Origin: Euglena gracilis | Taxonomy: Eukaryota | Assembly: GCA_039621445.1 (NCBI GenBank) | Contig: CP154954.1 | Location: 38,711,816 to 38,775,815 of the forward strand | DNA: 64,000 bases | Reading direction: 5' to 3' | Part shown: positions 22,381-60,163 of the stretch, piece by piece | Numbering within the stretch: the first letter of the stretch is position 1 | Layout of the letters: each line of letters starts with the position of its first letter | Made by a program: the position numbers and the translations under genes | The notes under the pieces: generated by a model | Databases searched by the model: none | Seen by the model: the letters and a program-made list of their open reading frames with translations, nothing else | What the model was told of the DNA's origin: nothing

Positions 22381-22460
22381 TGACTACCTTGGTGTACCAC
22401 ACCAAATGAATGCCTGTTCCCCACCCCCAAAAACCCCATAAACACCAGCGCAACCACTGG

Positions 22461-26397: not shown

Positions 26398-26491
<94 letters not shown>

Positions 26492-26529: not shown

Positions 26530-26563
<34 letters not shown>

Positions 26564-33610: not shown

Positions 33611-33639
33611 GGGGTTATTTTCAGCGCCTGGTGGTGTTT

Positions 33640-34023
33640 TTCGACACCCCCCCAGTTCCTGGCATTGAGGCAATCTGGCCCCGAAAACCACGCCCGCCCC
33701 CCCTTCCGCCCCGATTTATACCAAAAAATTGCCAAAAATTTGCTATTGTGGGGTGCTTTCAGCAGTGGTTTCGGTTATTATGGGGTTTTTGGGGGGTGGG
33801 GAACCCAGCTGACCTGGTCCCGGGGGCTGGTCGCACGTTTTGGCACCCCCCAATTCCTGGCACTGAGGCAATCTGGTCCCGAGAACCACGCCCCCCCCCT
33901 TCCGCCCCGATTTACACCAAAAAATTGCCAAAAATTTGCAATTGTGGGGTATCTTCAGCAGTGGTTTCAGGTATTGTGGGGTTTTTGGGGGTGGGGAACC
34001 CAGCTGACCTGGTCCCGGGGGGC
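33640..34023 (+). repeat. Two monomers of the ~200-bp satellite
   Basis: Same unit as the main array; continues at 35178 after a MITE. Confidence 0.9.
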
Positions 34024-35177
34024 CAAGCACCTATGACAGATTCCAAATTTTAGCCCGCGGTCGGCTGCGGTCGGCTGCGGTCGGCTGCGGTCGGCAGCGG
34101 TCGGCAAAGTAGTTGGCTGCAGGTGGGGGGCAGGCCAACAAAAAATGAGCATATATCACAACCACACAATCCACTGTTGCCGACTTTTGGCCACTTTTCG
34201 CTGCTTTTGGCCAGTTTTTGATCTTTTTGGACTGCTTTTGGCCACTGTTGCCAACTTTTGGTCGATTTTTGCTGCCTTTGCCCATTATTTCCTGCCTCTT
34301 GCTTTCTTTTGGTCACTTCTGTTGCTTTTGCCCACTTTTTGCTGTGTTTTGGCTGCTTTTGGCCAGCTTTTTCTTTGCTTTGACCTCTTTTGACCACCTT
34401 TGGCCTCTTTAACCCACTTTTGACCACTTTTCTCTGCTTTTGGCCATTTTTACCCACTTCTGGCCACTTTCAGGCCCCTTTAAACGCCTTTTTGTGGCTT
34501 TTGATATCAAGAGCAGTCAAATGTAACCTAAAAATGGCCTAAAAGTGGCAAAAAATGGTTAAAATGGCCAAAAGTTCCAAAAGCAGGCAAAAAATAATAA
34601 TAAAAATGCCCAAAAATGGCCCCAAAATGACCCTGCTTTTGGCCAAGTTGGCCATTTTAGCAGCTTTTGTTCACTTTTGGCAACAAACTGCGCAAAATGC
34701 TCAAAATGGTCAAATTGGACCAAAAAAGAGACCAAAAAATGGGCAAAAATAACAAAAAAAAGGTCGAAAGTGGCTTAAATGGTTAAAAAATGGCCCAAAA
34801 TGGCCCAAAATGGCCCAAGAGCAGGACAAAATGGCCCAAAATTACAAGAAGTGGGCAAAAAAGTGGCCAAAAATGCTCAAAATAGGTCAAACTGGGTGAA
34901 TTATGGTGACAAATGGGCCAAAAGGGGACAAAAGCGACCAAAAATGGCCAAAAAGGGCCAAAAGTGGCCAAAAGTGACAACATGAGCCAGATGAGCCAGA
35001 AAAATCTCAACATCTGGGATAAAAATGAGCCTAATTCCTCATTCTCACTGAAAAATTGACATCAATTAGAAAAAAAGTTGCGCGGTCGGCTGCGGTCGGC
35101 TGTGGTCGGCACCCCACCTATGACAGTCCTGAAACCCGCGGTCGGCTGCGGTCGGCTGCGGTCGGCATAGGTGCCTG
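34024..35177. mobile_element. hAT-like element (family D) with 10-bp GGTCGGCTGC subterminal repeats, inserted in a satellite monomer
   Basis: TIR CAAGCACCTATG...CATAGGTGCCTG; flanks CGGGGGGC/CCGGGGGC. Confidence 0.8.
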
Positions 35178-35204
35178 CCGGGGGCTGGTCGCACGTTTTG
35201 GCAC

Positions 35205-35693
35205 CAGGGAATTTCTTAAGCCGGAGGGTACCCTACCCCCGGGGGGGGGGGGTCCAGCCAGCCAGCAGCTCAAATCCAGCCAGCAGCCCAAATTCGGGCT
35301 GGGAGCCCCCCCCCCCGGGGTCAAGTGAAATAAAATCGGGTCCAGCCCGGCAGGAGGCCGGGTCAGCCGGCCGCAGGCCGGCCCAGCCGGCCGAAGGCCG
35401 GCCGGCCAATTGTGCTACCCAGCTCACCTGTCCCTTCATTTTTTCCCCTCATCGCAGCTTCCTCCATCACGGCCCCCCAGCCTTGACCTAGCTCCACCCC
35501 TCAAAATGTCGAAAATGGCAAAAATGTGTTAGAAAATTTTGTTTTTCGTCGACCCAGCCCAGCCCGGCCCCCTCCAGCCCCGGACCCCCCCCCCCGGGGG
35601 GGGTCCAGCCAGCAGATCAAATCCAGCCAGCAGCCTTTTTGCCAGCCGGAGGCTGGACCCCCCCCCCCCGGGGGGTCCTTAAGAAATTCCCTG
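35205..35693. mobile_element. hAT-like MITE (family A) inserted in a satellite monomer
   Basis: TIR CAGGGAATTTCTTAAG...CTTAAGAAATTCCCTG; perfect TSD TTTGGCAC (35197-35204, 35694-35701). Confidence 0.9.
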
Positions 35694-38600
35694 TTTGGCA
35701 CCCCCCAATTCCTGGCATTGAGGCAATCTGGTCCCGAGAACCACGCCACCCCCCTTTTGCCCTGATTTCAACCAAAAAAATTGGTATCTTGTTCTTTAAA
35801 CCACGCCACCCCACCCCCTTCCGCCCCGATGTATACCAAAAAATTGCCAAAACTTTTGCCATCGTGGGGTGTTCACCAGCAGTGGTTTCACTTATTGTGG
35901 GGTTTTTGGGGGTGGGGAACCCAGCTGACCTGGTCCCGGGGGCTGGTCGCACGTTTTGGCACCCCCGATTTCCTGGCATTGAGGCAATCTGGTCCCGTAA
36001 ACCACGCCCGCCCCCCCCTTCCGCCCCGATGTATACCAAAAAATTGCCAAAACTTTTGCCATCGTGGGGTGTTCACCAGCAGTGGTTTCAGTTATTGTGG
36101 GGTTTTTGGGGGTGGGGAACCCAGCTGACCTGGTCCCGGGGGCTGGTCGCACGTTTTGGCACCCCCGCTTTCCTGGCATTGAGGCAATCTGGTCCCGAGA
36201 ACCACGCCACCCGTAAACCACGCCCGCCCCCCCTTCCGCCCCGATGTATACCAAAAAAATGCCAAAATTTTGCAATTGTGGGTGTTTTCAGCAGTGGTTT
36301 CGGTTATTGTGGGGTTTTTGGGGGGTGGGGAACCCAGCTGACCTGGTCCCGGGGGCTGGTCGTACGTTTTGGCACCCCCCCCAATTCCTGGCATTGAGGC
36401 AATCTGGTCCCGAAAACCACGACACCCCCCCCCTTCCGCCCCGATACCAAAAAATTGCCAAAAATTTGCTATTGTGGGGTGTTCACCATCAGTTGTTTCA
36501 GTTATTGTGGGGTTTTTGGGGGTGGGGAACCCAGCTGACCTGGTCCCGGGGGCTGGTCGCACGTTTTGGCACCCCCCAATTCCTGGCATTGAGGCAATCT
36601 GGTCCCGAGAACCACGCCACCCCCCCCCCCTCGCCCCGATTTATACCAAAAAATTGCCAAAACTTTTGCCATCGTGGGGTGTTCACCAGCAGTGGTTTCA
36701 CTTATTGTGGGGTTTTTGGGGGTGGGGAACCCAGCTGACCTGGTCCCGGGGGCTGGCCGCACGTTTTGGCACCCCCCAATTCCTGGCATTGAGGCAATCT
36801 GGTCCCGAAAACCACGCCCCCCCCCCCGCCCTTCCGCCCCGATTTATACCAAAAAATTGCCAAAAATTTGCTATTGTGGGGTGTTCACCAGCAGTGGTTT
36901 CAGTTATTGTGGGGTTTTTGGGGGTGGGGAACCCAGCTGACCTGGTCCCGGGGGCTGGTCGCACGTTTTGGCACCCCCGCTTTCCTGGCATTGAGGCAAT
37001 CTGGTCCCGAAAACCACGCCACCCGTAAACCACGCCCGCCCCCCCCTTCCGCCCCGATGTATACCAAAAAATTGCCAAAAATTTGCAATTGTGGGGTGCT
37101 TTCAGCAGTGGTTTCGGTTATTGTGGGGTTTTGGGGGGTGGGGAACCCAGCTGACCTGGTCCCGGGGGCTGGTCGCACGTTTTGGCACCCCCCAATTCCT
37201 GGCATTGAGGCAATCTGGTCCCGAAAACCACGACACCCCCCCCTTCCGCCCCGATTTATACCAAAAAATTGCCAAAAATTTGCTATTGTGGGGTGTTCAC
37301 CATCAGTTGTTTCAGTTATTGTGGGGTTTTTGGGGGTGGGGAACCCAGCTGACCTGGTCCCGGGGGCTGGTCGCACGTTTTGGCACCCCCCAATTCCTGG
37401 CATTGAGGCAATCTGGTCCCGAAAACCACGACACCCCCCCCTTCCGCCCCGATGTATACCAAAAAATTGCCAAAATTTTGCCATCGTGGGGTGTTCACCA
37501 GCAGTGGTTTCGGTTATTGTGGGGTTTTGGGGGGTGGGGAACCCAGCTGACCTGGTCCCGGGGGCTGGTCGCACGTTTTGGCACCCCCCAATTCCTGGCA
37601 TTGAGGCAATCTGGTCCCGTAAACCACGCCCCCCCCCCCCGCCCTTCCGCCCCGATTTACACCAAAAAATTGCCAAAAATAGCAAAAAAATTTTTTTTGC
37701 TATTGTGGGGTGTTCACCATCAGTTGTTTCAGTTATTGTGGGGTTTTTGGGGGTGGGGAACCCAGCTGACCTGGTCCCGGGGGCTGGTCGCACGTTTTGG
37801 CACCCCCCAATTCCTGGCATTGAGGCAATCTGGTCCCGAAAACCACGACACCCCCCCCCTTCCGCCCCGATTTATACCAAAAAATTGCCAAAAATTTGCT
37901 ATTGTGGGGTGTTCACCATCAGTTGTTTCAGTTATTGTGGGGTTTTTGGGGGTGGGGAACCCAGCTGACCTGGTCCCGGGGGCTGGTCGCACGTTTTGGC
38001 ACCCCCCAATTCCTGGCATTGAGGCAATCTGGTCCCGAAAACCACGACACCCCCCGCCCTTCCGCCCCGATGTATACCAAAAAATTGCCAAAATTTTGCT
38101 ATTGTGGGGTGTTCACCAGCAGTGGTTTCGGTTATTGTGGGGTTTTGGGGGGTGGGGAACCCAGCTGACCTGGTCCCGGGGGCTGGTCGCACGTTTTGGC
38201 ACCCCCCAATTCCTGGCATTGAGGCAATCTGGTCCCGTAAACCACGCCCCCCCCCCCCCCGCCCTTCCGCCCCGATTTACACCAAAAAATTGCCAAAAAT
38301 AGCAAAAAAATTTTTTTTGCTATTGTGGGGTGTTCACCATCAGTTGTTTCAGTCATTGTGGGGTTTTTGGGGGTGGGGAACCCAGCTGACCTGGTCCCGG
38401 GGGCTGGTCGCACGTTTTGGCACCCCCGCTTTCCTGGCATTGAGGCAATCTGGTCCCGAAAACCACGACACCCCCCGCCCTTCCGCCCCGATGTATACCA
38501 AAAAATTGCCAAAAATTTGCAATTGTGGGGATGCTTTCAGCAGTGGTTTCGGTTATTGTGGGGTTTTGGGGGGTGGGGAACCCAGCTGACCTGGTCCCGG

Positions 38601-41600
38601 GGGCTGGTCGCACGTTTTGGCACCCCCCAATTCCTGGCATTGAGGCAATCTGGTCCCGAAAACCACGACACCCCCCGCCCTTCCGCCCCGATTTATACCA
38701 AAAAATTGCCAAAATTTTGCTATTGTGGGGTGTTCACCATCAGTTGTTTCAGTTATTGTGGGGTTTTTGGGGGGTGGGGAACCCAGCTGACCTGGTCCCG
38801 GGGGCTGGTCGCACGTTTTGGCACCCCCCAATTCCTGGCATTGAGGCAATCTGGTCCCGTAAACCACGCCACCCCCCCCCCTCGCCCCGATGTATACCAA
38901 AAAATTGCCAAAAATTTGCTATTGTGGGGTGTTCACCAGCAGTGGTTTCGGTTATTGTGGGGTTTTTGGGGGTGGGGAACCCAGCTGACCTGGTCCCGGG
39001 GGCTGGTCGCACGTTTTGGCACCCCCCAATTCCTGGCATTGAGGCAATCTGGTCCCGAAAACCACGCCACCCCCCCCCTTCCGCCCCGATGTATACCAAA
39101 AAATTGCCAAAATTTTGCCATCGTGGGGTGTTCACCAGCAGTGGTTTCGGTTATTGTGGGGTTTTGGGGGGTGGGGAACCCAGCTGACCTGGTCCCGGGG
39201 GCTGGTCGCACGTTTTGGCACCCCCCAATTCCTGGCATTGAGGCAATCTGGTCCCGAAAACCACGACACCCCCCGCCCTTCCGCCCCGATTTATACCAAA
39301 AAATTGCCAAAATTTTGCCATCGTGGGGTGTTCACTATCAGTAAATTCAGTTATTGTGGTGTTTTTGGGGGGGGGGACCCAGCTGACCTGGTCCCGGGGG
39401 CTGGTCGCACGTTTTGGCACCCCCCAATTCCTGGCATTGAGGCAATCTGGTCCCGAAAACCACGCCACCCCCCCCCCCTTCCGCCCCGATTTATACCAAA
39501 AAATTGCCAAAATTTTGCTATTGTGGGGTGTTCACCATCAGTTGTTTCAGTTATTGTGGGGTTTTTGGGGGTGGGGAACCCAGCTGACCTGGTCCCGGGG
39601 GCTGGTCGCACGTTTTGGCACCCCCCAATTCCTGGCATTGAGGCAATCTGGTCCCGTAAACCACGCCACCCCCCCCCCTCGCCCCGATGTATACCAAAAA
39701 ATTGCCAAAAATTTGCTATTGTGGGGTGTTCACCAGCAGTGGTTTCGGTTATTGTGGGGTTTTGGGGGGTGGGGAACCCAGCTGACCTGGTCCCGGGGGC
39801 TGGTCGCACGTTTTGGCACCCCCCAATTTTTGGCATTGAGGCAATCTGGTCCCGTAAACCACGACACCCCCCCCCTTCCGCCCCGATTTATACCAAAAAA
39901 TTGCCAAAAATTTGCTATTGTGGGGTGTTCACTATCAGTGGTTTCAGTTATTGTGGGATTTTTGGGGGGGGAACCCAGCTGACCTGGTCCCGGGGGCTGG
40001 TCGCACGTTTTGGCACCCCCGCTTTCCTGGCATTGAGGCAATCTGGTCCCGAAAACCACGCCGCCCCCCCCCCCCTTCCGCCCCGATTTATACCAAAAAA
40101 TTGCCAAAATTTTGCTATTGTGGGGTGTTCACTATCAGTGAATTCAGTTATTGTGGTGTTTTTTGGGGGGGGAACCCAGCTGACCTGGTCCCGGGGGCTG
40201 GTCGCACGTTTTGGCACCCCCCAATTCCTGGCATTGAGGCAATCTGGTCCCGTAAACCACGCCAGCTCCCCCGATTTATACCAAAAAAAAATTGCCAAAA
40301 TTTTGCCTTTGTGGGGATGTTTGCAGCTGGTGGTTTCAGTTATTATGGGGTTTTTGGGGGTGGGGAACCCAGCTGACCTGGTCCCGGGGGCTGGTCGCAC
40401 GTTTTGGCACCCCCCAATTCCTGGCATTGAGGCAATCTGGTCCCGTAAACCACGCCACCCCCCCCCCTTCCGCCCCGATTCATTCCAAAAAATTGCCAAA
40501 AATTTGCTATTGTGGGGTGTTCACCAGCAGTGCCAAAACGTGCGACCAGCCCCCGGGACTAGGTCAGCTGGGTTCCCCCCCCCAAAAACACCACAATAAC
40601 TGAATTCACTGATAGTGAACACCCCACAATAGCAAAATTTTGGCAATTTTTTGGTATAAATCGGGGCGGAAGGGGGGTGGCGTGGTTTTCGGGACCAGAT
40701 TGCCTCAATGCCAGGAATTGGGGGGTGCCAAAACGTGCGACCAGCCCCCGGGACCAGGTCAGCTGGGTTCCCCACCCCCAAAAACCCCACAATAACTGAA
40801 ACCATTTGCTGAAAATACCCCACAATAGCAAAATTTTGGCAAATTTTTTTGGTATAAATCGGGGCGGAAGGGGGGTGGCGTGGTTTACGGGACCAGATTG
40901 CCTCAATGCCAGGAATTGGGGGGTGCCAAAACGTGCGACCAGCCCCCGGGACCAGGTCAGCTGGGTTCCCCACCCCCCAAAAACCCCAGAATAACTGAAA
41001 CAACTGACGGTGAACACCCCACAATAGCAAATTTTTGGCAATTTTTTGGTATAAATCGGGGCGGAAGGGGGGTGGCGTGGTTTACGGGACCAGATTGCCT
41101 CAATGCCAGGAATTGGGGGGTGCCAAAACGTGCGACCAGCCCCCGGGACCAGGTCAGCTGGGTTCCCCACCCCCCAAAAACCCCACAATAACCTGGCATT
41201 AAGGCAATCTGGTCCCGTAAACCACGCCAGCTCCCCCGATTTATACCAAAAAAAAATTGCCAAAATTTTGCCATTGTGGGGATGTTTGCAGCAAGTGGTT
41301 TCAGTTATTATGGGGTTTTTGGGGGTGGGGAACCCAGCTGACCTGGTCCCGGGGGCTGGTCGCACGTTTTGGCACCCCCCAATTCCTGGCATTGAGGCAA
41401 TCTGGTCCCGTAAACCACGACACCCCCCTGCCTTTCCGCCCCGATTCATTCCAAAAAATTGCCAAAATTTTGCTATTGTGGGATGCTTTCAGCAGTGGTT
41501 TCGGTTATTGTGGGGTTTTTGGGGGTGGGGAACCCAGCTGACCTGGTCCCGGGGGCTGGTCGCACGTTTTGGCACCCCCCAATTCCTGGCATTGAGGCAA

Positions 41601-44600
41601 TCTGGTCCCGTAAACCACGACACCCCCCCCTTCCGCCCCGATTTATACCAAAAAATTGCCAAAAATTTGCTATTGTGGGGTGTTCACTATCAGTGGTTTC
41701 AGTTATTGTGGGATTTTTGGGGGGGGGGAACCCAGCTGACCTGGTCCCGGGGGCTGGTCGCACGTTTTGGCACCCCCCAATTCCTGGCATTGAGGCAATC
41801 TGGTCCCGAAAACCACGCCGCCCCCCCCCTTCCGCCCCGATTTATACCAAAAAATTGCCAAAATTTTGCTATTGTCGGGTGTTCACCAGCAGTGGTTTCG
41901 GTTATTGTGGTGTTTTTGGGGGGGGGGGGAACCCAGCTGACCTGGTCCCGGGGGCTGGTCGCACGTTTTGGCACCGCCCAATTCCTGGCATTGAGGCAAT
42001 CTGGTCCCGTAAACCACGCCAGCCCCCCCGATTTATACCAAAAAAAAATTGCCAAAATTTTGCCATTGTGGGGATGTTTGCAGCAAGTGGTTTCAGTTAT
42101 TATGGGGTTTTTGGGGAGCTGACCTGGTCCCGGGCAGGCACCTATGGTCACTTCCCATTTTGGTGCTCTGGTCGGCCCTGGTCGGCCCTGGTCGGCCCTG
42201 GTCGGCCCTGGTCGGCCCTGGTCGGCCCTGGTCGGCCCTGGTCGGCAAATAGTCGGCCATAGGTGGGGGTATCGTCACAGAAAAAAAGATTGTGAAAAAT
42301 GACCCAAAATTACCAAAAGGGCGTAAAATGGCCAAAATGCCATAAAATATGCTCACATTGACCCAAATTAGCCCAATATTTGCCAAATCAGTGACAAATG
42401 GCCCCCAAGTTAGCAAAAACTGATCCGTAATGGCCAGAATGGGTGTAAAACTGGAGATTTGTGGGGAAATTATCCAAAAATGGGTTGAGTTCTTCAAAAT
42501 ATACAATATACTGGCACAAAATGCTCAAAAATGGTCAAATTGGACCAAAAAGAGACCAAAAAACATAACGGTCCGTGGTGGCTTAAATGTGGTCAAAAAT
42601 GGCCCTAGAGCAGGACAAAATGGCCCAAATTACAAGAAGTGCGCAAAAAGTGGCAAAAAATGGTCAATAGGTCGAAATTGGTGAGATTTGGTGACAAATG
42701 GGCCAAAAGGGGACAAAAGCGACCTAAAGTGGCCAAAAGCGGCCAAAAGTAGCCAAAAGTGACAACATGAGCCAGACGAGCCAGAAAAATCTCAAAATCT
42801 GGGATAAAATTCCTCATTCTCACTGAAAAAATGACATCAATCAGAAAAAAAGTTGCACGGTCGGCTGCGGTCGGCTGCGGTCGGCTGCGGTCGGCAACCC
42901 ACCTATGACAGTCCTGAAACCCGCGGTAACCCGCGGTCGATGCTGCCAGGCCAGCATCGTCCTGCATCGCCCAGCACCGCCCAGCATCATCAAAGGAGCT
43001 TGGTTCAGAGGGAAAGCTGCCTAAGTCCTTCATCCATTCCCCTTCGGTCGGCCAATCACATGCAAGTCGGCCCTGGTCGGCCCTGGTCGGCCCTGGTCGG
43101 AACCCCCACCTACGGGGGTCTTGAAAATCATAGTCGGCCCTGGTCGGCCCTGGTCGGCCCTGGTCGGCCCTGGTCGGCCCTGGTCGGCCATAGGTGCCTG
43201 GTCCCGGGGGCTGGTCGCACGTTTTGGCACCCCCCAATTCCTGGCATTGAGGCAATCTGGTCCCGTAAACCACGACACCCCCCCCCCTTCCGCCCCGATT
43301 TATACCAAAAAATTGCCAAAAATTTGCTATTGTGGGGTGTTCACTATCAGTGGTTTCAGTTATTGTGGGATTTTTGGGGGGGGGGGAACCCAGCTGACCT
43401 GGTCCCGGGGGCTGGTCGCACGTTTTGGCACCCCCCAATTCCTGGCATTGAGGCAATCTGGTCCCGAAAACCACGCCGCCCCCCCCCCCCTTCCGCCCCG
43501 ATTTATACCAAAAAATTGCCAAAATTTTGCTATTGTCGGGTGTTCACCAGCAGTGGTTTCGGTTATTGTGGTGTTTTTGGGGGGGGGGAACCCAGCTGAC
43601 CTGGTCCCGGGGGCTGGTCGCACGTTTTGGCACCCCCCAATTTCTGGCATTGAGGCAATCTGGTCCCGTAAACCACGCCAGCTCCCCCGATTTATACCAA
43701 AAAAAAATTGCCAAAATTTTGCCATTGTGGGGATGTTTGCAGCAAGTGGTTTCAGTTATTATGGGGTTTTTGGGGGTGGGGAACCCAGCTGACCTGGTCC
43801 CGGGGGCTGGTCGCACGTTTTGGCACCCCCCAATTCCTGGCATTGAGGCAATCTGGTCCCGAAAACCACGCCACCCCACCCCTTCCGCCGTGATTTATAC
43901 CAAAAAATTGCCAAAAATTTGCTATTGTGGGGTGTTCACTATCAGTGGTTTCAGTTATTGTGGGGTTTTTGGGGGTGGGGAACCCAGCTGACCTGGTCCC
44001 GGGGGCTGGTCGCACGTTTTGGCACCCCCCAATTCCTGGCATTGAGGCAATCTGGTCCCGAAAACCACGCCACCTCCCCTTCCGCCCCGATTTACACCAA
44101 AAAAATTGCCAAAATTTTGCTATTGTGGGGAGTTTTCAACATTGGTTCCAGTTATTCTAGGGTTTTTGGGGGTGGGGAACCCAGCTGACCTGGTCCCGGG
44201 GGCTGGTCGCACGTTTTGGCACCCCCCAATTCCTGGCATTGAGGCAATCTGGTCCCGTAAACCACGCCACCCCACCCCCCTTCCGCCCCGATTTATACCA
44301 AAAAATTGCCAAAAATTTGCTATTGTGGGGTGTTCACCATCAGTTGTTTCAGTTATTTTGGGGTTTTTGGGGGTGGGGAACCCAGCTGACCTGGTCCCGG
44401 GGGCTGGTCGCACGTTTTGGCACCCCCCAATTCCTGGCATTGAGGCAATCTGGTCCCGAAAACCACGCCACCTCCCCTTCCGCCCCGATTTCCACCAAAA
44501 AATTGCCAAAATTTTGCTATTGTGGGGATATTTGCAGCAAGTGGTTCCAGTTATTCTAGGGTTTTTGGGGGTGGGGAACCCAGCTGACCTGGTCCCGGGG

Positions 44601-45925
44601 GCTGGTCGCACGTTTTGGCACCCCCCAATTCCTGGCATTGAGGCAATCTGGTCCCCTAAACCACGCCAGCTCCCCTTCGGCCCCGATTCATTCCAAAAAA
44701 TTGCCAAAAATTTGCTATTGTGGGGTGTTCACCATCAATGGTTTCAGTTATTGTGGGGTTTTTGGAGGTGGGGAACCCAGCTGACCTGGTCCCGGGGGCT
44801 GGTCGCACGTTTTGGCACCCCCCAATTCCTGGCATTGAGGCAATCTGGTCCCCTAAACCACGCCAGCTCCCCTTCGGCCCCGATTTATACCAAAAAAAAA
44901 TTGCCAAAATTTGCCATTGTGGGGTGTTCACCATCAGTGGTTTCAGTTATTCTAGGGTTTTTGGGGGTGGGGAACCCAGCTGACCTGGTCCCGGGGGCTG
45001 GTCGCACGTTTTGGCACCCCCCAATTCCTGGCATTGAAGCAATCTGGTCCCCTAAACCACGACACCCCCCCCGATTTATACCAAAAAATTGCCAAAATTT
45101 TGCTATTGTGGGGATATTTGCAGCAAGTGGTTCCAGTTATTCTAGGGTTTTTGGGGGTGGGGAACCCAGCTGACCTGGTCCCGGGGGCTGGTCGCACGTT
45201 TTGGCACCCCCCAATTCCTGGCATTGAGGCAATCTGGTCCCGTAAACCACGCCACCCCCACCCTCGCCCCGACTTCCACCAAAAAATTGCCAAAAATTTG
45301 CTATTGTGGGGTGTTCACCATCAGTTGTTTCAGTTATTTTGGGGTTTTCGGGGGGGGGAACCCAGCTGACCTGGTCCCGGGGGCTGGTCGCACGTTTTGG
45401 CACTGCTGGTGAACACCCCACAATAGCAAATTTTTGGCACCCCCCAATTCCTGGCATTGAGGCAATCTGGTCCCCTAAACCACGCCAGCTCCCCTTCGGC
45501 CCCGATTCATTCCAAAAAATTGCCAAAAATTTGCTATTGTGGGGTGTTCACCATCAGTTGTTTCATTTATTGTGGGGTTTTCGGGGGAGGGGAACCCAGC
45601 TGACCTGGTCCCGGGGGCTGGTCGTACGTTTTGGCACCCCCCAATTCCTGGCATTGAGGCAATCTGGTCCCGTAAACCACGCCAACCCCCCCCCCTTCCG
45701 CCCCGATTTATACCAAAAAATTGCCAAAAATTTGCTATTGTGGGGTGTTCACCATCAGTTGTTTCAGTTATTTTGGGGTTTTTGGGGGTGGGGAACCCAG
45801 CTGACCTGGTCCCGGGGGCTGGTCGCACGTTTTGGCACTCCCCACTTCTCAACATTAAGCCAATCTGGCCCCGAAAATTACCCCACCCCCCTCCCGCCCC
45901 AAATTATACCAAAAAAAGTTGCCAA
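35694..45925 (+). repeat. ~200-bp tandem satellite array (roughly 45 monomers)
   Basis: Unit GGAACCCAGCTGACCTGGTCCCGGGGGCTGGTCGCACGTTTTGGCACCCCCCAATTCCTGGCATTGAGGCAATCTGGTCCC...ATACCAAAAAATTGCCAAAA...TTATTGTGGGG recurs about every 200 bp; internal inversion at 40530-41192 and insertion at 42135-43200. Confidence 0.97.
42135..43200. mobile_element. hAT-like element (family D) with GGTCGGCCCT 10-bp subterminal repeats, inside the satellite
   Basis: TIR CAGGCACCTATGG...CCATAGGTGCCTG; perfect TSD GTCCCGGG (42127-42134, 43201-43208); interior homologous to 34690-35150. Confidence 0.9.
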
Positions 45926-45929
45926 AATT

Positions 45930-47240
45930 TAAAATGATCCAGTGTTTCATCCAATTCACCGATTGCCAATTCCCTGTTTGCATCCCACAACACAGGGCTA
46001 TCTTTTTCCAATTGTTCCCCAACGAGGGCTGCTTCAAAAGCTTTGTGTCACATTTTACAACATTTTGGTTCCCATTGACTGGCAAAAATAAAATGGGGTA
46101 AAAAAATTGGTATTTGTCTGTTATCGCACAACATACCCCCCCCCCTTCGGTTATCGCACGACGCCCTTTTTTTAGGCTTTATAGGGTTATTTGAAGGAGT
46201 AGGGTTAGGTGTGCACATGCCATGTTGCGCTACATGGCCACATTGCGCTTCATGGCCACGTTGCGCTACATGGCCACGTTGCGCTACATGGCCACGTTGC
46301 GCTACATGGCCATGTAGCGCAACGTGGCCATGTAGCGCAACGTGGCCATGTAGCGCAACATGGCATGTGCGCACCTAACCCTACTCCTTCAAATAACCCT
46401 AAATAACCCAAAAAAAGGGTGTCGTGCGATAACCGAAAGGGGGGGGGTACGTCGTGCGAGGTTGGTTGTTTTCGATTTTTGACAAACCTCGTGCCTTTTT
46501 TTGCTGAATCAAAACAACTCAATATTGTCACTTTTGACGTGGTGAGAGACATCACCTTCATAACAATTGTCATCCGAATCTGCGTCATCGTCTTGCAGAT
46601 ATTCAATTGTTTCAAAATCAGGTTCCATTCGAAGCATGGTGATTGCTCAATCTCAATGAATCATCACTTCTTGCAATGGATCTGCAGAAGGCGCCACATT
46701 CATAGGGGATGGTTCTGGTCACGGGGGGAACACCATATTTTCGGTTGCGAAATTGACCGAACCCAAGATATGGAAATACTTTTCCTCAAATTTGATTTTC
46801 ACACCAAATTGAGAACCGGCTGGGGAAAAAGTAGCCGCTAACAGGCCAAGTAACCGCCAAAGCGGGGAATGAGTGGTTAACCATGGTTAACACGGTTAAA
46901 ACGGACAGAGATCCAAACTTCTCACGCAAAACCCACATCATTTGATGAAAACCATTTCCTCATTGGACAAATCTTGGGCCGAAATAGCAAAATACTGACG
47001 GGGGTGTTTGAGAGGTGCCTGATGGGGCACAATCCGCAGGCACCAAGGCCAGCTGGGTTCCCCGCCCCCCAAACACCGAATAATAACAAAAACCACTGCA
47101 GCTCAACACCCCCGAATGGTGAAATTTTGGCAATTTTTTTCGGCATAAATCGGGGCTGGGGGGGGGAGTGACTTTCAGGGCCAGATTGCCTCAACGCTAG
47201 GAACTGGGGGGGGGGGTGCCAAAATGTGCGACCAGCCCCG
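45930..47240 (-). repeat. Copy B (partial) of the chromo/EndoVII-like dispersed repeat, ending in an inverted satellite monomer
   Basis: Collinear with 32697-33605; interrupted by a fold-back element. Confidence 0.8.
46124..46459. mobile_element. Near-perfect fold-back (palindromic) MITE
   Basis: TA-CCCCC..TTCGGTTATCGCACGAC...GTCGTGCGATAACCGAAGGGG..-TA; centre made of 18-bp GCGCTACATGGCCACGTT units in both orientations; absent from homologous sites at about 32875 and 49250. Confidence 0.85.
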
Positions 47241-47241
47241 G

Positions 47242-48760
47242 CAAGCACGTATAATCAAGCCCAAAAATTCCCCCGTTTTTGGCCGTTTCAGGCTACTTTA
47301 GGCTATTTTAGGTCATCTAAAGCCATTTTAGGCCATTTTAAGGTATAGGTGGGGGTTCTGAAAATCATAATTTTGCGTCGTTGTTGTCCTGAAAACTGCA
47401 TGCTAACGTGTGCGAACCTTCTGTTATTCAGTAATGAGTAATGTACATCCAAAAAAGCATGCAAAATTCATGAACACTAGATCTAAACCACGGGAAGCTC
47501 AACAATTCTTAATTCATCCCCACAGAATTATGGCAGTGAAAAATTTTCAGGGAAACAAATTTTGGACAAAGATTAAAAGATTTTATTTTGCACTGCCAAA
47601 AAAGCGTCCAGTTTTTTTTGTATTTTGTGAAATCTATACCATTTTAAGGGATTTCGAAAAAAGAAGTTTCTGACTTTTCTGGGGAATAATTCATCTTCAC
47701 TGTCTGCACGTGGCTCATATTTTTCCCATCTGGTCCAAAATCTATGTTTCCCAAAGTTCTAGGTTGTGTGTTGTGTGGAGCAATTTTGAGGGGTTTAACT
47801 CGAGAAGGTGGGGGAATTGAGGGTAATGAGTGGAGACTTTTTTTTGTCGGGTATTTCACAGGCCACTATGACGTGATGATGGGAGAGTAAATTTGCACGA
47901 GTGTCAAACTTCCAGCAGGCTTTGCACAAAAAAAGGCCAAAGTTTTTGGAAAAAAATGGGGGGCGAAGACACACAAATTAAGGAACCATGTTTGCATGGA
48001 AGGAGGAGGAGAGCCAAACGCTGGGGGGGGGTATGCATACAAAGTTGGTAACTGCAGATTGACTCCCAAGCCTGAACCTCCCCCAAAATATAAGAGACCC
48101 CACCCACGCCATAACACACCCCCAACCTCAGACGGCATTTGGGGATTTTCGGTCCAACGCCAAATTTGATACTGTTGCCTGGTGAAATTCAATTTGTTTT
48201 TGGCATTGTTTTAGCCATTTTGGGCCCTTTTTGGCGATTGCAGAGATCAAAGGGCAAAACTCTCTTTTCCGTGTTTGGTTTCCCCCTTGGAGAAACTTAA
48301 CTCTAAAAAGAAAACCCTCTGAAGACGTTCATAAATAAGAGAGAATCTCATTCATAGTTGTTAGTGGTTGTTTAGGTCATTTGATCTTTCGGCGTGATTA
48401 CTTGTGGTTTTGGAAAATCCCCCAAAATTCAGCTACCAAAAGAAGGTTGGGGACCGTGGATTTGGGGACTGATACTATATTGGTTGAGATAAAAAGTGGG
48501 GCTGTGCTCCTCCACCAAATCCACTGTTCGCCGTCCACATTGACAAAAGACACCAAAAATCATTACCTGAATGGCTACAATTGTTCACAAAATAAATTGT
48601 TGTGCAACAAAAATTTTCCCATTTTAGGCCATTTTAGGCCATTTTAGGCCATTTTAGGCCATTTTAGGCCATTTTAGGCCGCCATTTTATGGACCCCCAC
48701 CTACAGGGGGTCAAAAAGTCATTTCAGGCCATTTTAGGCCATTTTAGCTATAGGTGCTTG
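47242..48760. mobile_element. hAT-like element (family D ends) with GCCATTTTAG subterminal repeats and a unique AT-rich interior
   Basis: CAAGCACGTATA...TATAGGTGCTTG; flanks AGCCCCGG/GCCCCCGG within a reverse-oriented satellite monomer. Confidence 0.75.
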
Positions 48761-48769
48761 GCCCCCGGG

Positions 48770-49930: not shown

Positions 49931-50229
49931 TTTTCGGGATGAATTGGTGCCTCCAGTGGCCCCTCTCCCCACCTGTTAGAGCCCTGGACTGCCGAACCGC
50001 TCCTTTGGCCAACAAGCAGGGCAACACACAACTGGCATCGCCCTCAAAAGGAAAACGCCTGCCATGTGTGAGGTCAGCACTCCTTGGCCGCATAACAGCA
50101 GTGCCACACCTTCTCTGGGAAGAAAGGTCCGTCGAGTGTGGCAGGGGCGTATGAGAAGCCCTGAGGGGGAGAGGAGAATGGGGAGATGAACGGTGGGGGG
50201 GCACCATCAAAAACACATTCAAACACATG

Positions 50230-53200: not shown

Positions 53201-53690
53201 CTTCCTTGTTTCCATCCTGCCATTTTTGACTGAAGTCAAGCGCGACACCTCTCTTCGTGCGTGTTCCCGCCAATCCAGCAGTGCACACCTGAGCGGTTTG
53301 CGGCGAGAGGTGTGCAGAGGTGCTGCTTCGCATATGCCCCCGCGCACGCCCCTGCGCCTACCACCCGTGCCTTCGCTGCCGCCTGCCAGATCCCTTCAGT
53401 GACCCCTGCTCATACCACGCCGGGTTCGCCGGGTTGAGGTGGGGGAAAAGCATGCTTCCATTCCACTCCACCATCATATGCCCCCACACGTGTCCATCGC
53501 ACGCGTTCGGTGCACACTCCTGGGGGTGTGGTACAAGCGTCCACGGGTTGGAAGAGGGAAACCCAGCAACGGTGAGCTGCCAGGTGGGAGCAGGGGGCCC
53601 TGAGTTGGCGGGTGGGGAGGTGCTCGGTTGGCGATGGCAGCTGCAGCAGCACCATGGCTCCGAGGTGGACTGGAGATGGGGCTGAGTGCC
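50230..53690. repeat. Duplicate of 18840-20740 with extra insertions
   Basis: Collinear similarity; insertions at about 50315-50775, 51095-51506 and 52870-53430. Confidence 0.8.
51095..51506. mobile_element. MITE with TA TSD (same TIR family as 2585-3143)
   Basis: TA|CCCTCCCCCCCCTATGTCCAACGACC...GGTCGTTGGACATAAGGGG..G|TA; empty site CCCAGATTAAGCACAC at 19176-19191. Confidence 0.88.
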
Positions 53691-54664
53691 AATCCCCTGC
53701 TCACCCCCGCAACCAAGGGGAAAAAAAACTGGCAGATGCCTGACCAAAACACCGACCAAAATTGTCCCCAGCCAGAGGAGAATGCATTGAAAAGCTTTCC
53801 TGTCAGACTTGCATGTACATGTATATATTCCATTTTTTCCAGAATTTTCCCTGAAAATCACGACCATTCAAAAAAAAAACTCAGTTCACCTGAATTTCTG
53901 ATCTTCTGGTGATCACATGTTCTCATAACCCAGAATGTTTGCACGTGTGCGCGCATTGTCCCGGACCATATTGCCGGGGGAGCAGGGTGCAGTGGCCGCC
54001 CGCGTGGTGAGAGGTCGACCTGAAAATGCAATCACCCAGGGGTGGGCAATCACCCACCCCTCAATTATGATGCTCAGCCCCCCCAAAAGCAAGGGTCCAG
54101 ACCCCCCCCCAGTCGTTGTTTTGGGGGTGTGCTGTTGTACTGACACAACCCTGTCGAGCATTCTTCTCAAGGGCACCGATTTTTTTGGTCAAAAATTTCC
54201 TTCCGCACTGGTGGCACCAAAGCATTTTTTCTTTGCATGGTGCTGTGGTGGGGAGGGGGGGGGGGTCGACCCCCCCCCCCGGTCTTAAAAGAAATCCATA
54301 AAATTCAGGGAGTGGTGTTCCATTCAAACCCTGCAGGTTTTGCTTTGCTGTGTGCTGGTCTGGGGGCAGCTTTTGGTGCAATAAAAAAAAGTGATAAAAA
54401 GAGACAATTGTCCTCATTTCATGTGGATTCACTCAATCAATTGTTTGCACCGGGGTTCAACAAAAAAGCGTTCGGGGCGGGGGGGGGGGGGGGGGGGAAG
54501 TTTGGGGGGGGGGCATTTGGGGGGGGGGGGAAACAAAGAAAATAAAAACAACTAACAAACCGCTAGGCGACTTGTGGGTGTCGTGGGGATTGCAGCCCTC
54601 GCCAAATGAAAACTGGCCCAAAATACATTATTTACAAATTTATTTTTATAAAACCATTGTGAGT

Positions 54665-54673
54665 GTGATGATA

Positions 54674-54716
<43 letters not shown>

Positions 54717-54720
54717 CGAT
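54665..54720. repeat. (GAT)n microsatellite
   Basis: Direct reading. Confidence 0.95.
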
Positions 54721-57643: not shown

Positions 57644-57909
57644 CAGGGGTGTTTTTAAGACCAGGGGGGAGGGCCCCCCACCCACCCCCTGGGGGGGGAC
57701 CCTCCCTGGGAGGGGGTCCCGGGGGGCTCACAAAAAAATTACCGAAAAGGCGCGAAAAGTGTTAAAATGCACAATTTCAAAAATTTTCGGTGCCAAAGGC
57801 ACTGAAAAGTATATCCCACCCCCCTACGGGGGACCCCCCCGGGTGGGGGGCTTGGCCAGACGACCCACCCTACTCCCCCCCCCGGGTCCATGACTAAAAA
57901 AAACTCCTG
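57644..57909. mobile_element. hAT-like MITE (family B) inserted in a dispersed satellite monomer
   Basis: CAGGGGTGTTTTTAAG...CTAAAAAAAACTCCTG; perfect TSD TTTGGCAC (57636-57643, 57910-57917); monomer sequence on both sides (about 57500-57960). Confidence 0.85.
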
Positions 57910-60163
57910 TTTGGCACCCCCCGCTTTCCTGGCATTGAGGCAATCTGGCCCCTAAAACAACGCCCCCACACACAAGCACACACATACCACATAAAGCCCA
58001 GGGGGCTGTTTGCCAAGCTGCGGATGGAGCGCACATAATGGGGCTGCTGATAAAACCACGGGGAGCCTGTGAGGGGGAAATATTGAGGAGAGAGGCTTCC
58101 TCGAGTCCTTCCAGGCTATTGTCAGTTTCGATATTCCCAACCGTTCCTCAGGAGAAACCACCACGGATCCCATGCATCCCAAAATCCGTCATTTGCCCAG
58201 GGCTTCAGATGATCAGGCACGATTCAGATTTTTGAGGCACCCCAGGGTGGACCCACCCCCACACGTGTTCCCTTCTCAAACACACAGAGACATTCCAATG
58301 GGGAGACACAACCTCTCAAATGACCATCAACAATGGAGAGGGTGTTAACCAGGGTTGGATGGGAAGCCCTTCGGGATTGAGGTAGGTGGGAGGGGGGTCC
58401 GGACCCTCCCACCCCCCCCCTCCTTGACAGGTGCCAAAAATAGCAGAAAATTTTCTTCCGCTGCGGAAAATGAGCAAAAACACCCCCTTTTGCTGACTTT
58501 TGGACATATTGCCCATTTTTTGCCCACCCCCCCCCCTCTGTGTCGGGAGGGGGGGTCCGACCATACATCTCTTTAAGGACCCCGGGGGGGGGTGCTGGGC
58601 TAGGGCTAGAAGTTTGGGCTGGCTAGAAATTTGGGCTGGCTAGCCCGCCCCCCCCCCCTGGGGGGGGGAGGGGGGGGTCGGACCCATACATCTCTCTAAG
58701 GTTTTGCGAACCCCCCCCCCCGGGGGTGCGGCTGCAGCCAGCCCCGATTTGGGCCCAGCCCAGCCGCAGCAGCACCCCCCCCCGGGGGGGTGCTGCTAGC
58801 CCAGCTAGCCAGCCCCTTTTTTGGGGGTCCAGCCCAAAATTTTTCGGCGCAAAGCGCCGAAATTTTTTGAAAAATTGTGTTCAAAAGTGGCCAAAAATGG
58901 GGTTTGGGGGCGTTTGGGGCATTTTTGGGGGGTTTCAGATGCATCATTTTTTCAAAACTGTGTTTTGCAGGTCATTTTTGGGCATTTTTCCGATTTCAGT
59001 CTAGCTCGCCCCGGTTCGGGTCCAGCCGGGGTCCAGCCCCCCCCAAGGCTTCCCATCCAACCGTGGTGTCAACACACAGCAGGCTCAAATAGAGGCACAC
59101 CACGTTGTTATGTCCCACGTGGCGGAAGCCAGGGGCCATACGGACTGGGGCCCCCGTTCCGCGCCGGGAACCCTCGCTCGGCCAGGGCGAACCGAGGCCA
59201 AGCGAGGTCATCCGACACGGCCGGGGGGGGGGAGTGCAGGGGATGTGCTGTCATTGCAGGCAGCCTCCTTTGCCACCACCAAAAACCAGGATTGCCAGGA
59301 GCAGTGTGGTCAGGGTAGAGCCGATGGTCTGTCCAACACAAACTGACTTTTCAAAAACCGGTCACCCACTTCCAAAAACCAATCACCCACACCCTGCCCC
59401 CTGCCCCCCACCCCAGGGGGGGATGGTCAGTTACACTGACCACTGGGCCAAAATGACAAAATGGCAAAAAAATGTGCCGAAAATCAATGCACTTTGGTTA
59501 AAAAAAACCCTAAAATTTTCCGGCGCCTTTGGTGCTAGGTGGCCGACCCCACTGCCCTCCAGGGGGGGGGGAGCTAAAAACCAATCACTCACTCCGAAAA
59601 AAATTGGTCAGTCACCGGGGGGGGGGGGGGGGGGGCACACTCCATGGCAAGCAATGGTGTGGTGCAGAGGGTCAAAGACAGTTTCCCGGGAGACCATTTC
59701 AGGGGGGAGGGGTGGGGACAAAATCCCAATAACCAACCCCCTGCTCTGGCACATAAACAGCTGGGACAATTTCCTGGGCAGGTCAGGGTCGGAGGGGGAA
59801 AAGTTGACATTATCGGCCACCGGGGACAAAAAAAAACCGAAAAGCATTTTTCCACAAATTTGTGGCTGGAAGCCTGGAGAAAATGTTCAGAATTTTTTAA
59901 CCGGCTTTTGAACAAAAAAAAAAACAAAGAGACAGGTCAGCATGAACAAGGGTGGGAGACAGGTCCCCATGAAGACAGATTAATGGGCAGGTACAGAGGG
60001 CAGACAGAGGACAATTCTCCCGGCATCACAATGTCACAACGTTGCCAGGAAGCTGCCAGGCGGCTGCCGGGGGCTGACGGCCACACGCTGCTGGATCGGC
60101 GGCAGCGTTGGTGTGGTGGTGTTGTGGGCTGACTCACAGGCAGGCTAGTTTCCGGTGCAAGCA

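What the first reader, a model, noticed from the sequence alone, without database searches (positions are those of the whole stretch)
33990..57920. A satellite monomer as a landing pad: five hAT-like insertions from three families within ~40 bp, with sites reused exactly
Seen: in CTGGTCCCGGGGGCTGGTCGCACGTTTTGGCACCCC, family A (35205) and family B (57644) both duplicate the same 8-mer TTTGGCAC. Family D-ended elements duplicate CCGGGGGC twice (34024, and 47242 on the other strand, both with one homopolymer discrepancy) and GTCCCGGG once (42135). No insertion is seen in the remaining ~160 bp of the monomer. Known: CAG..CTG ends with 8-bp TSDs are typical of hAT elements, which usually have only weak target consensus. 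Inference: a shared transposase, or a factor bound to the conserved half of the monomer, directs integration. This may be an undescribed satellite-targeted DNA transposon system.
Basis: partly seen in the sequence, partly recalled or inferred. Interest (0 to 1): 0.75.

Follow-up and report, generated by a model that had tools for sequence, protein, structure and literature searches.

The report
Transposon hot spots in a satellite repeat
Small cut-and-paste transposons have landed repeatedly at the same few bases of a 199-base tandem repeat, most likely because those bases fit the usual target taste of this transposon type, not because a new satellite-seeking system exists.

Summary
A sixth element (21656-22416) sits in a solo monomer copy at positions 182-189.

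The events are independent. The two elements at TTTGGCAC share no detectable similarity, and each has a closer relative outside the satellite.

Site use is non-random under a uniform model (p about 1e-3). The signal lies within classes of elements that share ends, not across them.
- Three class-specific sites in a 43-bp arc give p about 0.14.
- Only 10 of 199 monomer positions fit the hAT target pattern nTnnnnAn. The A, B and E insertions use two of them.

The A/B class is not satellite-specific. The D class is (3 of 3) and stays unexplained.

New here: public contigs suggest the conserved half is a roughly 104-bp module, far more abundant than the rest of the monomer and shared by other roughly 200-bp repeats.

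No genome was held, so the genome-wide census could not be run. Earlier notes of this scan describe the same kind of MITE in this genome, which they call Euglena gracilis, but not this satellite pattern.

The parts
33497..45930 (+). Main array of the 199-bp satellite, about 50 monomers. It is interrupted by El1, El2 and El3, and holds an inverted stretch of about 3.3 monomers at roughly 40530-41190.
   Evidence: TRF periods 197-201; BLAST of the consensus; 46 copies of the 36-mer hot zone.
34024..35177 (+). El1, a D-ended non-autonomous element of 1154 bp. Ends are CAAGCACCTATG... and ...CATAGGTGCCTG, with subterminal (GCGGTCGGCT)n. The TSD is 34015-34023 CCGGGGGGC and 35178-35185 CCGGGGGC, monomer positions 7-14.
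35205..35693 (+). El2, a family A MITE of 489 bp with a perfect 16-bp TIR CAGGGAATTTCTTAAG. The TSD TTTGGCAC lies at 35197-35204 and 35694-35701, monomer positions 26-33. It sits in the same monomer copy as El1, 28 bp away.
   Evidence: It is 88% identical over its full length to the non-satellite copy at 206-698.
42135..43200 (+). El3, a D-ended element of 1066 bp with TIR CAGGCACCTATGG and subterminal (CTGGTCGGCC)n. Its internal part is 80% identical to El1 over 493 bp. The TSD GTCCCGGG lies at 42127-42134 and 43201-43208, monomer positions 4-11.
47242..48760 (+). El4, a 1519-bp element with D-like ends (CAAGCACGTATA... and ...TATAGGTGCTTG) and subterminal (CCATTTTAGG)n. It lies in a minus-strand monomer copy that belongs to a 1.1-kb repeat unit. 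The TSD is 47235-47241 GCCCCGG and 48761-48768 GCCCCCGG, the complement of positions 7-14.
   Evidence: The automatic scan missed it because of the 1-base homopolymer difference in the TSD.
57644..57909 (+). El5, a family B MITE of 266 bp with ends CAGGGGTGTTTTTAAG and CAGGAGTTTTTTTTAG. It sits in a solo, about 80% diverged monomer (57492-57967). The TSD TTTGGCAC lies at 57636-57643 and 57910-57917, positions 26-33.
   Evidence: It aligns at 72% to the non-satellite copy at 21227-21518.
21656..22416 (-). It lies in a solo monomer copy. The TSD TTCCCCAC lies at 21648-21655 and 22417-22424. This equals GTGGGGAA, monomer positions 182-189.
37938..38041 (+). One copy of the conserved module of about 104 bp (monomer positions 168-199 plus 1-72). 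It contains all the insertion sites and three CTGGTC motifs. Its core is GGGGAACCCAGCTGACCTGGTCCC, present 48 times in the window with 3 or fewer mismatches.
   Evidence: Per-position conservation is 0.981 in the module against 0.921 elsewhere. One search gives the contig depth, the borders and the two-copy contigs.
45371..45445 (+). A rearranged monomer. Positions 1-33 are followed by a 39-bp inverted piece (positions 154-116), then the monomer resumes at position 25, so TTTTGGCA(C) stands on both sides. The patch shares a 66-bp identical junction with the inversion border at 40494-40559.
   Evidence: The junctions lie at short homologies (GTG; TTTTGGCA and TGCCAAAA), so a transposon footprint is not required.

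Best explanation
The region is a 199-bp satellite array, with scattered solo copies, into which non-autonomous hAT-type transposons have inserted independently. These are the CAG..CTG, 8-bp-duplication MITEs that earlier notes of this scan describe in this genome. I count at least six such insertions.

Each class of elements, defined by shared ends and so presumably by a shared transposase, uses its own favoured few bases of the monomer.
- The A/B class uses TTTGGCAC (positions 26-33).
- E uses GTGGGGAA (positions 182-189).
- The D-ended class uses the very GC-rich GTCCCGGGGGC (positions 4-14).

The reuse arises because the transposase's ordinary sequence-level target preference meets a target that is repeated nearly unchanged in every monomer. 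The same best site is therefore offered again and again. For A, B and E that preference is the canonical hAT pattern nTnnnnAn with a G+C-rich centre.

Shown: the insertions, their independence, the non-uniform use of sites, and the fit to nTnnnnAn. Inferred: that sequence preference alone is sufficient, that elements with shared ends share a transposase, and that D has a GC-rich preference of its own.
For: 1. **Independent events.** There is no BLAST match between A_35205 and B_57644. A_35205 is 88% identical to A_206 over the full length, and B_57644 is 72% identical to B_21227; both relatives lie outside the satellite. El1 and El3 are 80% alike but sit 3 bp apart. El4 shares only its ends and low-complexity matches with the other D elements.
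2. **hAT-type target pattern.** Of 13 accepted TIR/TSD elements in the window, 5 have duplications fitting nTnnnnAn. The window frequency of that pattern is 5.1%, giving a binomial p of 3e-4. The five are A_206, A_35205, B_57644, C_20820 and E_21656. The pattern itself comes from the Hermes literature (PMC10368747, passages read).
3. **Few candidate sites.** Only 10 of 199 monomer positions fit the pattern: 26, 63, 100, 104, 114, 115, 125, 139, 142 and 182. The A, B and E insertions use 26, 26 and 182. The chance that A and B coincide is then about 1 in 10. It is about 1 in 6 among the six sites with a G+C-rich centre (my count).
4. **The A/B class is not satellite-specific.** Copies at 206-698, 14654-15052 and 21227-21518 lie elsewhere, with unrelated duplications.
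5. **Target choice follows the end type, not the subterminal repeat.** The three D-ended elements carry three different 10-mers yet hit the same 11 bp.
6. **Cross-class clustering is weak.** Three class sites within a 43-bp arc of a 199-bp circle give 3 x (43/199)^2, about 0.14 (my arithmetic).
Against: - **D class.** All 3 copies in the window lie in the satellite, which covers 16% of the window, so 0.16^3 = 0.004. All 3 lie within 3 bp of each other. None fits nTnnnnAn. No non-satellite D insertion exists here from which a preference could be learned.
- **A, B and E still favour the module.** All 3 events use module positions (26, 26, 182). Three of the ten fitting positions lie in the module (26, 63, 182); none of the seven fitting positions in the A+T-rich half is used. 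That gives 0.3^3, about 0.03, with n = 3.
- **Overall enrichment.** 6 of the 13 accepted elements sit in satellite-like DNA. One search computed p = 0.016 for 6 of 14, counting the doubtful pair at 3541-4128. The window was chosen after the fact.
- **Diverse targets elsewhere.** The non-satellite duplications of the B-like copies (CATGGGGT, CACCCAGG) show that the preference is loose. Exact reuse is therefore not guaranteed by it.
- **The sites lie in the best-conserved part of the monomer.** If that conservation reflects function, one would expect insertions there to be removed, not kept.
Confidence: 0.55

Rival explanations
1. Directed integration. The conserved module of about 104 bp is bound by a protein, or has a special chromatin state such as an accessible stretch between positioned nucleosomes. 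Alternatively, it mimics transposase-binding subterminal repeats. In each case transposition complexes of several families are steered into a window of about 50 bp.
For: - All six insertions lie in an arc of 51 bp, from position 182 to position 33 counting the duplicated bases. The duplication starts span 43 bp. The uniform-model p is 0.003 for six.
- The arc lies inside the best-conserved part of the monomer (0.98 against 0.92).
- That part appears to be a separate and far more abundant module.
- D-ended elements are 3 of 3 in the satellite.
- The A, B and E insertions use only module positions among the ten nTnnnnAn positions.
- The module carries CTGGTC three times, at positions 1, 14 and 63. 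El3's subterminal repeat is CTGGTCGGCC. hAT transposases read subterminal repeats with BED domains (PMC10368747, passages).
- The arc equals 199 minus 147 bp, the size of a nucleosome linker. This is my inference. The preference of Hermes for nucleosome-free DNA is recalled, and the term occurs once in PMC10368747.
Against: - Per class, the clustering is not significant (about 0.14).
- The A/B class also inserts outside the satellite, at unrelated sequences.
- The three D elements have three different subterminal 10-mers, one of them unrelated to CTGGTC, yet share the site. Mimicry of subterminal repeats is therefore unlikely to set the target.
- A shared 6-mer between a 10-mer repeat and a 104-bp module is expected in about 39% of random cases (my arithmetic).
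- The arc is the G+C-rich half, while the A-tracts lie in the other half. Simple sequence rules would therefore put the nucleosome on the arc, not the linker.
- The module shows no special single-strand fold (z = +1.03).
Confidence: 0.27
2. Chance plus selection of the window. A few insertions in one array happen to coincide, and the case was picked out of very many windows because it looked striking.
For: - There are only six events.
- The scan covers some 250,000 windows, according to the description of the search of earlier findings.
- Conditioned on nTnnnnAn, the A/B coincidence is only a 1 in 10 event.
- Cross-class clustering has p of about 0.14.
Against: - Under the uniform model the joint probability of the span and of two exact coincidences is 2.5e-5.
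- The D class alone gives three hits within 3 bp.
- Few windows can hold an array with five or more TIR/TSD insertions, so the multiple-testing burden is much smaller than the number of windows.
Confidence: 0.12
3. The shared sites descend from one ancestral insertion that was copied along with the satellite. The elements then diverged or were replaced.
For: Satellites spread variants by unequal exchange. The inversion junction is indeed present twice, as a 66-bp identical stretch at 40494 and 45439.
Against: - The elements at shared sites are unrelated inside. There is no A-B match, and El1 and El4 share only their ends and low-complexity matches.
- Each has closer relatives at other sites.
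- No insertion is repeated in neighbouring monomers.
- El1 and El3 are related but sit 3 bp apart, with different duplications.
Confidence: 0.03

Closest known systems
hAT-superfamily MITEs with the target preference nTnnnnAn (Hermes, Ac/Ds, Tol2 as studied members; PMC10368747, passages read)
   Same: - 8-bp target duplications.
- Short inverted ends beginning CAG.
- Subterminal short repeats.
- Non-autonomous copies.
- 5 of 13 duplications in the window fit nTnnnnAn, against 5.1% background.
   Different: - No transposase was seen, so membership is not proven.
- The D-ended class uses very G+C-rich targets that do not fit the pattern.
- The D-ended class has an unusual end design: TIR, then 10-mer tandem repeats, then an inverted copy of the TIR core.
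Euglenid MITE-like elements linked to nonconventional introns
   Same: - CAG...CTG ends.
- Inverted terminal repeats.
- Duplication-like direct repeats of 8 bases.
- The same genome, according to the earlier notes.
   Different: - Those reports concern copies in genes that are removed from the RNA.
- Here the copies sit in a satellite.
- Nothing was tested about transcription or splicing.
Target-specific transposons of multicopy sequences: Dada DNA transposons in small-RNA genes, Pokey in rDNA, R1/R2 and TRAS/SART retrotransposons (all recalled, not looked up here)
   Same: - Repeated use of one nucleotide position in a highly repeated host sequence.
- The D-ended class is 3 of 3 in the repeat.
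   Different: - In those families essentially all copies sit in the target, and the element encodes the specificity.
- Here the A/B class has 3 of 5 copies elsewhere.
- The sites differ between classes.
- No encoded targeting function is known.
Nested-insertion preferences of plant MITEs (Tourist and Stowaway inserting into other repeats; recalled)
   Same: Short non-autonomous DNA transposons accumulate at particular sequences inside other repeats, simply because their short target motif recurs there.
   Different: - The superfamilies differ, with TA or TAA targets.
- The targets there are other transposons, not a satellite monomer.

Membership tests
hAT superfamily (non-autonomous members) | 8-bp target-site duplication | tested here: met
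   Of 13 accepted elements, 7 have perfect 8/8 duplications: 206, 14654, 14842, 21656, 35205, 42135 and 57644. The other six differ at one base or by one homopolymer base: 20820, 21227, 24518, 31000, El1 and El4.
hAT superfamily (non-autonomous members) | Short terminal inverted repeats of the YARNG type (motif recalled, not from a call) | tested here: inconclusive
   The A/B ends CAGGG fit. The D ends (CAGGC, CAAGC) and the E ends (CAGAC, CAGGC) match only CAR.
hAT superfamily (non-autonomous members) | Target preference nTnnnnAn | tested here: met
   5 of 13 duplications fit, against a window frequency of 5.1%, p = 3e-4. The feature is not met by the three D-ended elements.
hAT superfamily (non-autonomous members) | Mobilised by a DDE transposase with a hAT dimerisation domain and a BED finger | not testable with these tools
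   No genome is held. None of the 57 ORFs of 150 aa or more that I scanned (of 111 listed; those inside tandem arrays were left out) has a transposase domain. The only hits were RVT_1, in 2 ORFs.
Target-specific (site-specific) transposons of repeated host sequences | Nearly all copies of the family lie in the target repeat | tested here: not met
   For the A/B class, only 2 of 5 complete copies lie in the satellite. The D-ended class is 3 of 3, which is too few to decide.
Target-specific (site-specific) transposons of repeated host sequences | Insertion at one fixed nucleotide position of the target | tested here: inconclusive
   A/B: 2 of 2 satellite insertions at positions 26-33. D: 2 of 3 at positions 7-14 and 1 at positions 4-11. 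E: 1 at positions 182-189.
Target-specific (site-specific) transposons of repeated host sequences | The element or its transposase carries a device that recognises the target | not testable with these tools
   No autonomous copy is available. The likeness of El3's repeat CTGGTCGGCC to the module's CTGGTC motifs is not shared by El4.

The most novel reading that the evidence does not exclude
The conserved module of about 104 bp appears to be shared by a very abundant family of roughly 200-bp tandem repeats in this genome. On this reading it is a true integration platform. A factor bound to it, or its chromatin state, steers at least the D-ended hAT-like elements, and perhaps several classes, into a window of about 50 bp around the core GGGGAACCCAGCTGACCTGGTCCC. 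That would be a satellite-directed DNA-transposon system of a kind I did not find in print. My searches were made, in which I saw only listings, titles and the starts of abstracts.
Probability: 0.2. Interest if true: 0.7.

Novelty: new member of a known kind. Interest (0 to 1): 0.35.

Why it matters
If the ordinary reading is right, the value is descriptive.
- It gives a clean, small data set on the target taste of the MITE classes that are thought to feed Euglena's nonconventional introns.
- It shows that a satellite monomer can act as a natural, many-times-repeated target array for reading such preferences.
- It also flags a conserved module of about 104 bp that seems far more abundant than the satellite around it and that no paper I could search describes.

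If the D-ended class really seeks the module, it would be a rare case of a cut-and-paste transposon aimed at a satellite. It would also give a handle on whatever binds the conserved half of this repeat.

Tried and rejected
1. **Whole-genome census.** No genome is held for this window.
2. **Public metagenome contigs.** Two scans, one with a 22-mer of the hot zone and one with the family A end, each gave 0 matches.
3. **Census of junctions from public contigs** (runs X10, X4, X7, X5 laid on one rotated monomer).
   - Only 24 of 231 loose-end rows are shown.
   - None of the shown rows at positions 4, 7 or 26 ('before') or 11, 14 or 33 ('behind') continues as CAGG.. or ends as ..CCTG.
   - The one row at position 33 (run X5, 5 contigs) continues into satellite-like sequence.
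   - Only about 1 in 100 laid contigs runs on for 20 or more unlike letters.
   - Contigs from roughly 1x data drop rare variants, so this says nothing about absence.
4. **Transposon footprint at 45371-45445.** The TTTTGGCAC duplicate around a 39-bp inverted patch looked like an excision scar at the same site. However, its junctions lie at short homologies (GTG; TTTTGGCA against its inverted copy at positions 115-122), and the same junction stands at 40494-40559 as a 66-bp identical stretch. Template switching or copying explains it without a transposon.
5. **Right border of the inversion.** BLAST put it at position 32. Reading the bases shows position 161 on the minus strand joined to position 44 on the plus strand. 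It is not at the hot site.
6. **Solo fragments that start at position 25** (17606 and 32398). No convincing element end or duplication abuts them.
7. **Hairpin or cruciform in the module.** The DNA fold gives -17.4 kcal/mol and z = +1.03, with 172 of 200 shuffles folding as well.
8. **Control for the TIR/TSD scan on the reversed sequence.** It gave 25 pairs. The 20 that I printed all lie inside the satellite, where its oppositely oriented monomers mimic ends; the last 5 were not inspected. The control is therefore uninformative inside the array.
9. **Pairs that I dropped.**
   - The 16 pairs that share the start 32279, paired with successive monomers.
   - 14748-21387, 54047-56968 and 58953-63243.
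   - The doubtful pair 3541-4128.
10. **Earlier-notes look-ups by sequence.** The look-up for the satellite and the one for El3 found nothing. The one for element A returned only an unrelated note from another genome.
Full report
**Setting**

The window is repeat-rich eukaryotic DNA with no Rfam family at gathering score. Of 111 stop-to-stop ORFs of 150 aa or more, I scanned 57 against Pfam and left out those inside tandem arrays. The only domains were reverse-transcriptase fragments, in 2 ORFs. No transposase is present.

Earlier notes of this scan call the genome Euglena gracilis. They describe small CAG..CTG elements with 8-bp duplications that resemble Euglena's nonconventional introns. 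I did not verify the organism.

The published idea that such introns derive from MITE-like elements is stated in PMC12501133 and PMC11282704 (passages read). No whole genome is held.

**The satellite**

- TRF reports arrays of period 197-201 from 33648 to 45927.
- I built a 199-bp consensus from 37 monomers, chosen by an exact 17-mer anchor, so positions 1-17 are invariant by construction.
- BLAST of the consensus maps about 50 monomers between 33497 and 45930. It also maps solo or partial copies at 17606, 21582/22416, 32398, 47050, 48775 and 57492-57967.
- Satellite-like DNA covers 10,262 bases, or 16% of the window.
- The core GGGGAACCCAGCTGACCTGGTCCC occurs 48 times, 44 of them exact.
- Conservation among the 37 monomers is 0.981 for positions 168-199 plus 1-72, and 0.921 for the rest.

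**The insertions**

All five listed insertions are as described; coordinates are in the parts list. On the consensus the duplications map as follows:

| Duplication | Monomer positions | Elements |
|---|---|---|
| GTCCCGGG | 4-11 | El3 |
| CCGGGGGC | 7-14 | El1 and El4 (El4 in a minus-strand copy) |
| TTTGGCAC | 26-33 | El2 (family A) and El5 (family B) |

I then ran a systematic scan for CA[AGT]...[CTA]TG pairs, requiring 3 or fewer mismatches in 14 bp of inverted end and 1 or fewer mismatch in the 8-bp flanks. It gave 32 pairs with 17 distinct starts. I accept 12 of them, plus El4, which the scan missed because of a 1-base homopolymer difference. The rest are listed under Tried and rejected.

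One accepted pair is a sixth satellite insertion. Element E (21656-22416) has the perfect duplication TTCCCCAC. This equals GTGGGGAA, positions 182-189 of a solo monomer copy.

The seven accepted elements outside the satellite are:

| Start | Duplication | Note |
|---|---|---|
| 206 | CTGCGGAT | family A |
| 14654 | CATGGGGT | B-like |
| 14842 | GGGGGCCC | nested in the element at 14654 |
| 20820 | ATCCCCAT / ATCCCGAT | class C |
| 21227 | CACCCAGG / CACCCGGG | B-like |
| 24518 | GGATGCGG / GGGTGCGG | |
| 31000 | CCGGCCAC / GCGGCCAC | class C |

Monomer-by-monomer alignment shows only 4-16 bp duplications or deletions elsewhere in the monomer.

**Independence**

- A_35205 and B_57644 give no BLAST match to each other.
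- A_35205 is 88% identical over its full length to A_206.
- B_57644 aligns at 72% over 274 bp to B_21227.
- El1 and El3 are 80% identical over 493 bp but sit 3 bp apart.
- El4 shares only its ends and low-complexity matches with them.

The 'one ancestral insertion' refutation therefore fails.

**Is it more than chance?**

Under uniform insertion along the monomer, one search gives:
- Five starts within 22 bp: p = 8e-4.
- Two exact coincidences: p = 6e-4.
- Both together: p = 2.5e-5.
- Six starts within 43 bp: p = 0.003.

The units of this test are not independent in kind, however.
- Families A and B, and also C, share the end type CAGGGnnTTTnTTAAG. They are probably moved by one transposase lineage.
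- The three D-ended elements share CARGCACSTAT.
- Counted per class there are three preferred sites (26; 4-7; 182) in a 43-bp arc, which gives about 0.14 (my arithmetic).

The solid signal is reuse within a class.

**What explains reuse within a class?**

- Five of 13 duplications fit the canonical hAT target pattern nTnnnnAn (PMC10368747, passage), against 5.1% of window positions, p = 3e-4. The five include all the A, B and E insertions in the satellite.
- Only 10 of 199 monomer positions fit the pattern. Six of those have a G+C-rich centre, as the fitting non-satellite duplications do.
- The A/B coincidence is then a 1-in-10 to 1-in-6 event.
- The A/B class also inserts outside the satellite.

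This is what an ordinary, loose sequence preference does when the same target is offered in every monomer.

The D-ended class is different.
- None of its three duplications fits the pattern.
- All three lie in GTCCCGGGGGC.
- All three copies in the window are in the satellite (0.16^3 = 0.004).

A strong taste for very G+C-rich targets would explain this, but the window holds no non-satellite D insertion to test it. The three D elements carry three different subterminal 10-mers: GCGGTCGGCT, CTGGTCGGCC and CCATTTTAGG. The likeness of one of these to the module's three CTGGTC motifs is therefore unlikely to be what sets the target.

**New finding from public data**

I laid Logan contigs of four runs of 'organism A' on one rotated monomer, 37871-38069, which is positions 101-199 plus 1-100.
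- Summed word depth is 1e5 to 7e5 over about 37941-38038, with the peak at 37955-37975, which is the core.
- It is 1e4 to 3e4 over positions 101-163, and 6e2 to 1e4 over positions 77-100.
- In 4 of 4 runs, loose ends mark 37937-37939 as a border. In all four, loose ends at 38041 to 38046 mark the other.
- In 4 of 4 runs, a contig holds two copies of this stretch about 200 bases apart, with 95 unlike letters between them.

Contig depth is one figure per contig and is not a copy number, so the ratio is only indicative. Together with the borders and the two-copy contigs, it suggests that the 'conserved half' is a module of about 104 bp. That module would be shared by other roughly 200-bp repeats and be much more abundant than this satellite's other half.

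The assembly paper reports 9.85% tandem repeats and does not use the word 'satellite' (PMC11252322, passages). Four strings from the module and the D end occur in no held paper.

The same lay could not deliver the junction census (see Tried and rejected).

**Verdict**

The elements are non-autonomous, hAT-like in every feature that could be tested, and independently inserted.

The landing-pad pattern is real as a description. For the A, B and E elements it is most simply explained by ordinary hAT target preference acting on a repeated target.

Confidences:
- Ordinary target preference: 0.55.
- Steering device or chromatin effect: 0.27. This remains open, mainly for the D-ended class.
- Chance: 0.12.
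- Common descent: 0.03.

A search for a described case of hAT MITEs aimed at a satellite monomer found none among the 15 listed of 59 papers (I saw only titles and the starts of abstracts). The comparisons with Dada, Pokey, R1/R2 and nested plant MITEs are recalled, not looked up.

Noticed in passing
34024-34150, 35060-35177, 42135-42270, 43040-43200, 47242-47360, 48600-48760: Each end of the D-ended elements has the same design: TIR (CAxGCACCTAT), about 20 bases, a run of 10-bp tandem repeats, then an inverted copy of the TIR core next to a G or C run (ATAGGTGGGGG or CCCCCACCTA). The 10-mer differs between elements (GCGGTCGGCT, CTGGTCGGCC, CCATTTTAGG). Each end therefore looks like a small foldback unit.
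   Followed up: partly
40530-41190 and 45371-45445: A stretch of about 3.3 monomers is inverted within the array. Its left junction joins position 154 on the plus strand to position 33 on the minus strand. Its right junction joins position 161 on the minus strand to position 44 on the plus strand. The left junction recurs 5 kb away as a 66-bp identical stretch inside a 39-bp inverted patch. A contig of run X10 also shows an opposite-strand joint between 37922 and 38003.
   Followed up: partly
32436-33628, 45931-47182, 48810-49892: A unit of about 1.1 kb occurs three times in direct orientation (77-95% identity). Each copy ends in a minus-strand, diverged copy of the satellite monomer, and copies 2 and 3 are in tandem. 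The satellite may be an amplified piece of this longer unit, or the reverse.
   Followed up: partly
46113-46459: A long palindromic, foldback-like insertion lies in copy 2 of the 1.1-kb unit and is absent from copies 1 and 3. Its ends are not of the CAG..CTG type. Its centre holds an 18-bp tandem repeat (46215-46364).
   Followed up: no
119-165 and 206-698: A truncated 5' end of family A (about 45 bp) lies 42 bp upstream of a complete family A copy. The two events are close together, as El1 and El2 are in the satellite (28 bp apart, in the same monomer).
   Followed up: no
5800-14300 (minus strand): Long open frames of up to 835 aa, with two reverse-transcriptase fragments (RVT_1, E = 1e-9 and 1e-5). 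These are decayed retrotransposon copies.
   Followed up: partly
26019-31436: A class C end (CAGGCTTTTGCTTAAG) is followed by a 351-base A run (26261-26611) and a 3.3-kb array of a 29-bp repeat (27640-30927). The stretch closes with a complete class C element at 31000-31436.
   Followed up: no
4901-5738; 60162-61890: A (TGG)n run of about 275 units, and a very G+C-rich 50-bp tandem repeat organised in higher-order units of about 290-340 bp.
   Followed up: no
18844-20721 and 50237-53691: A segmental duplication inside the window, with 80-89% identity over about 1.9 kb in several pieces.
   Followed up: no
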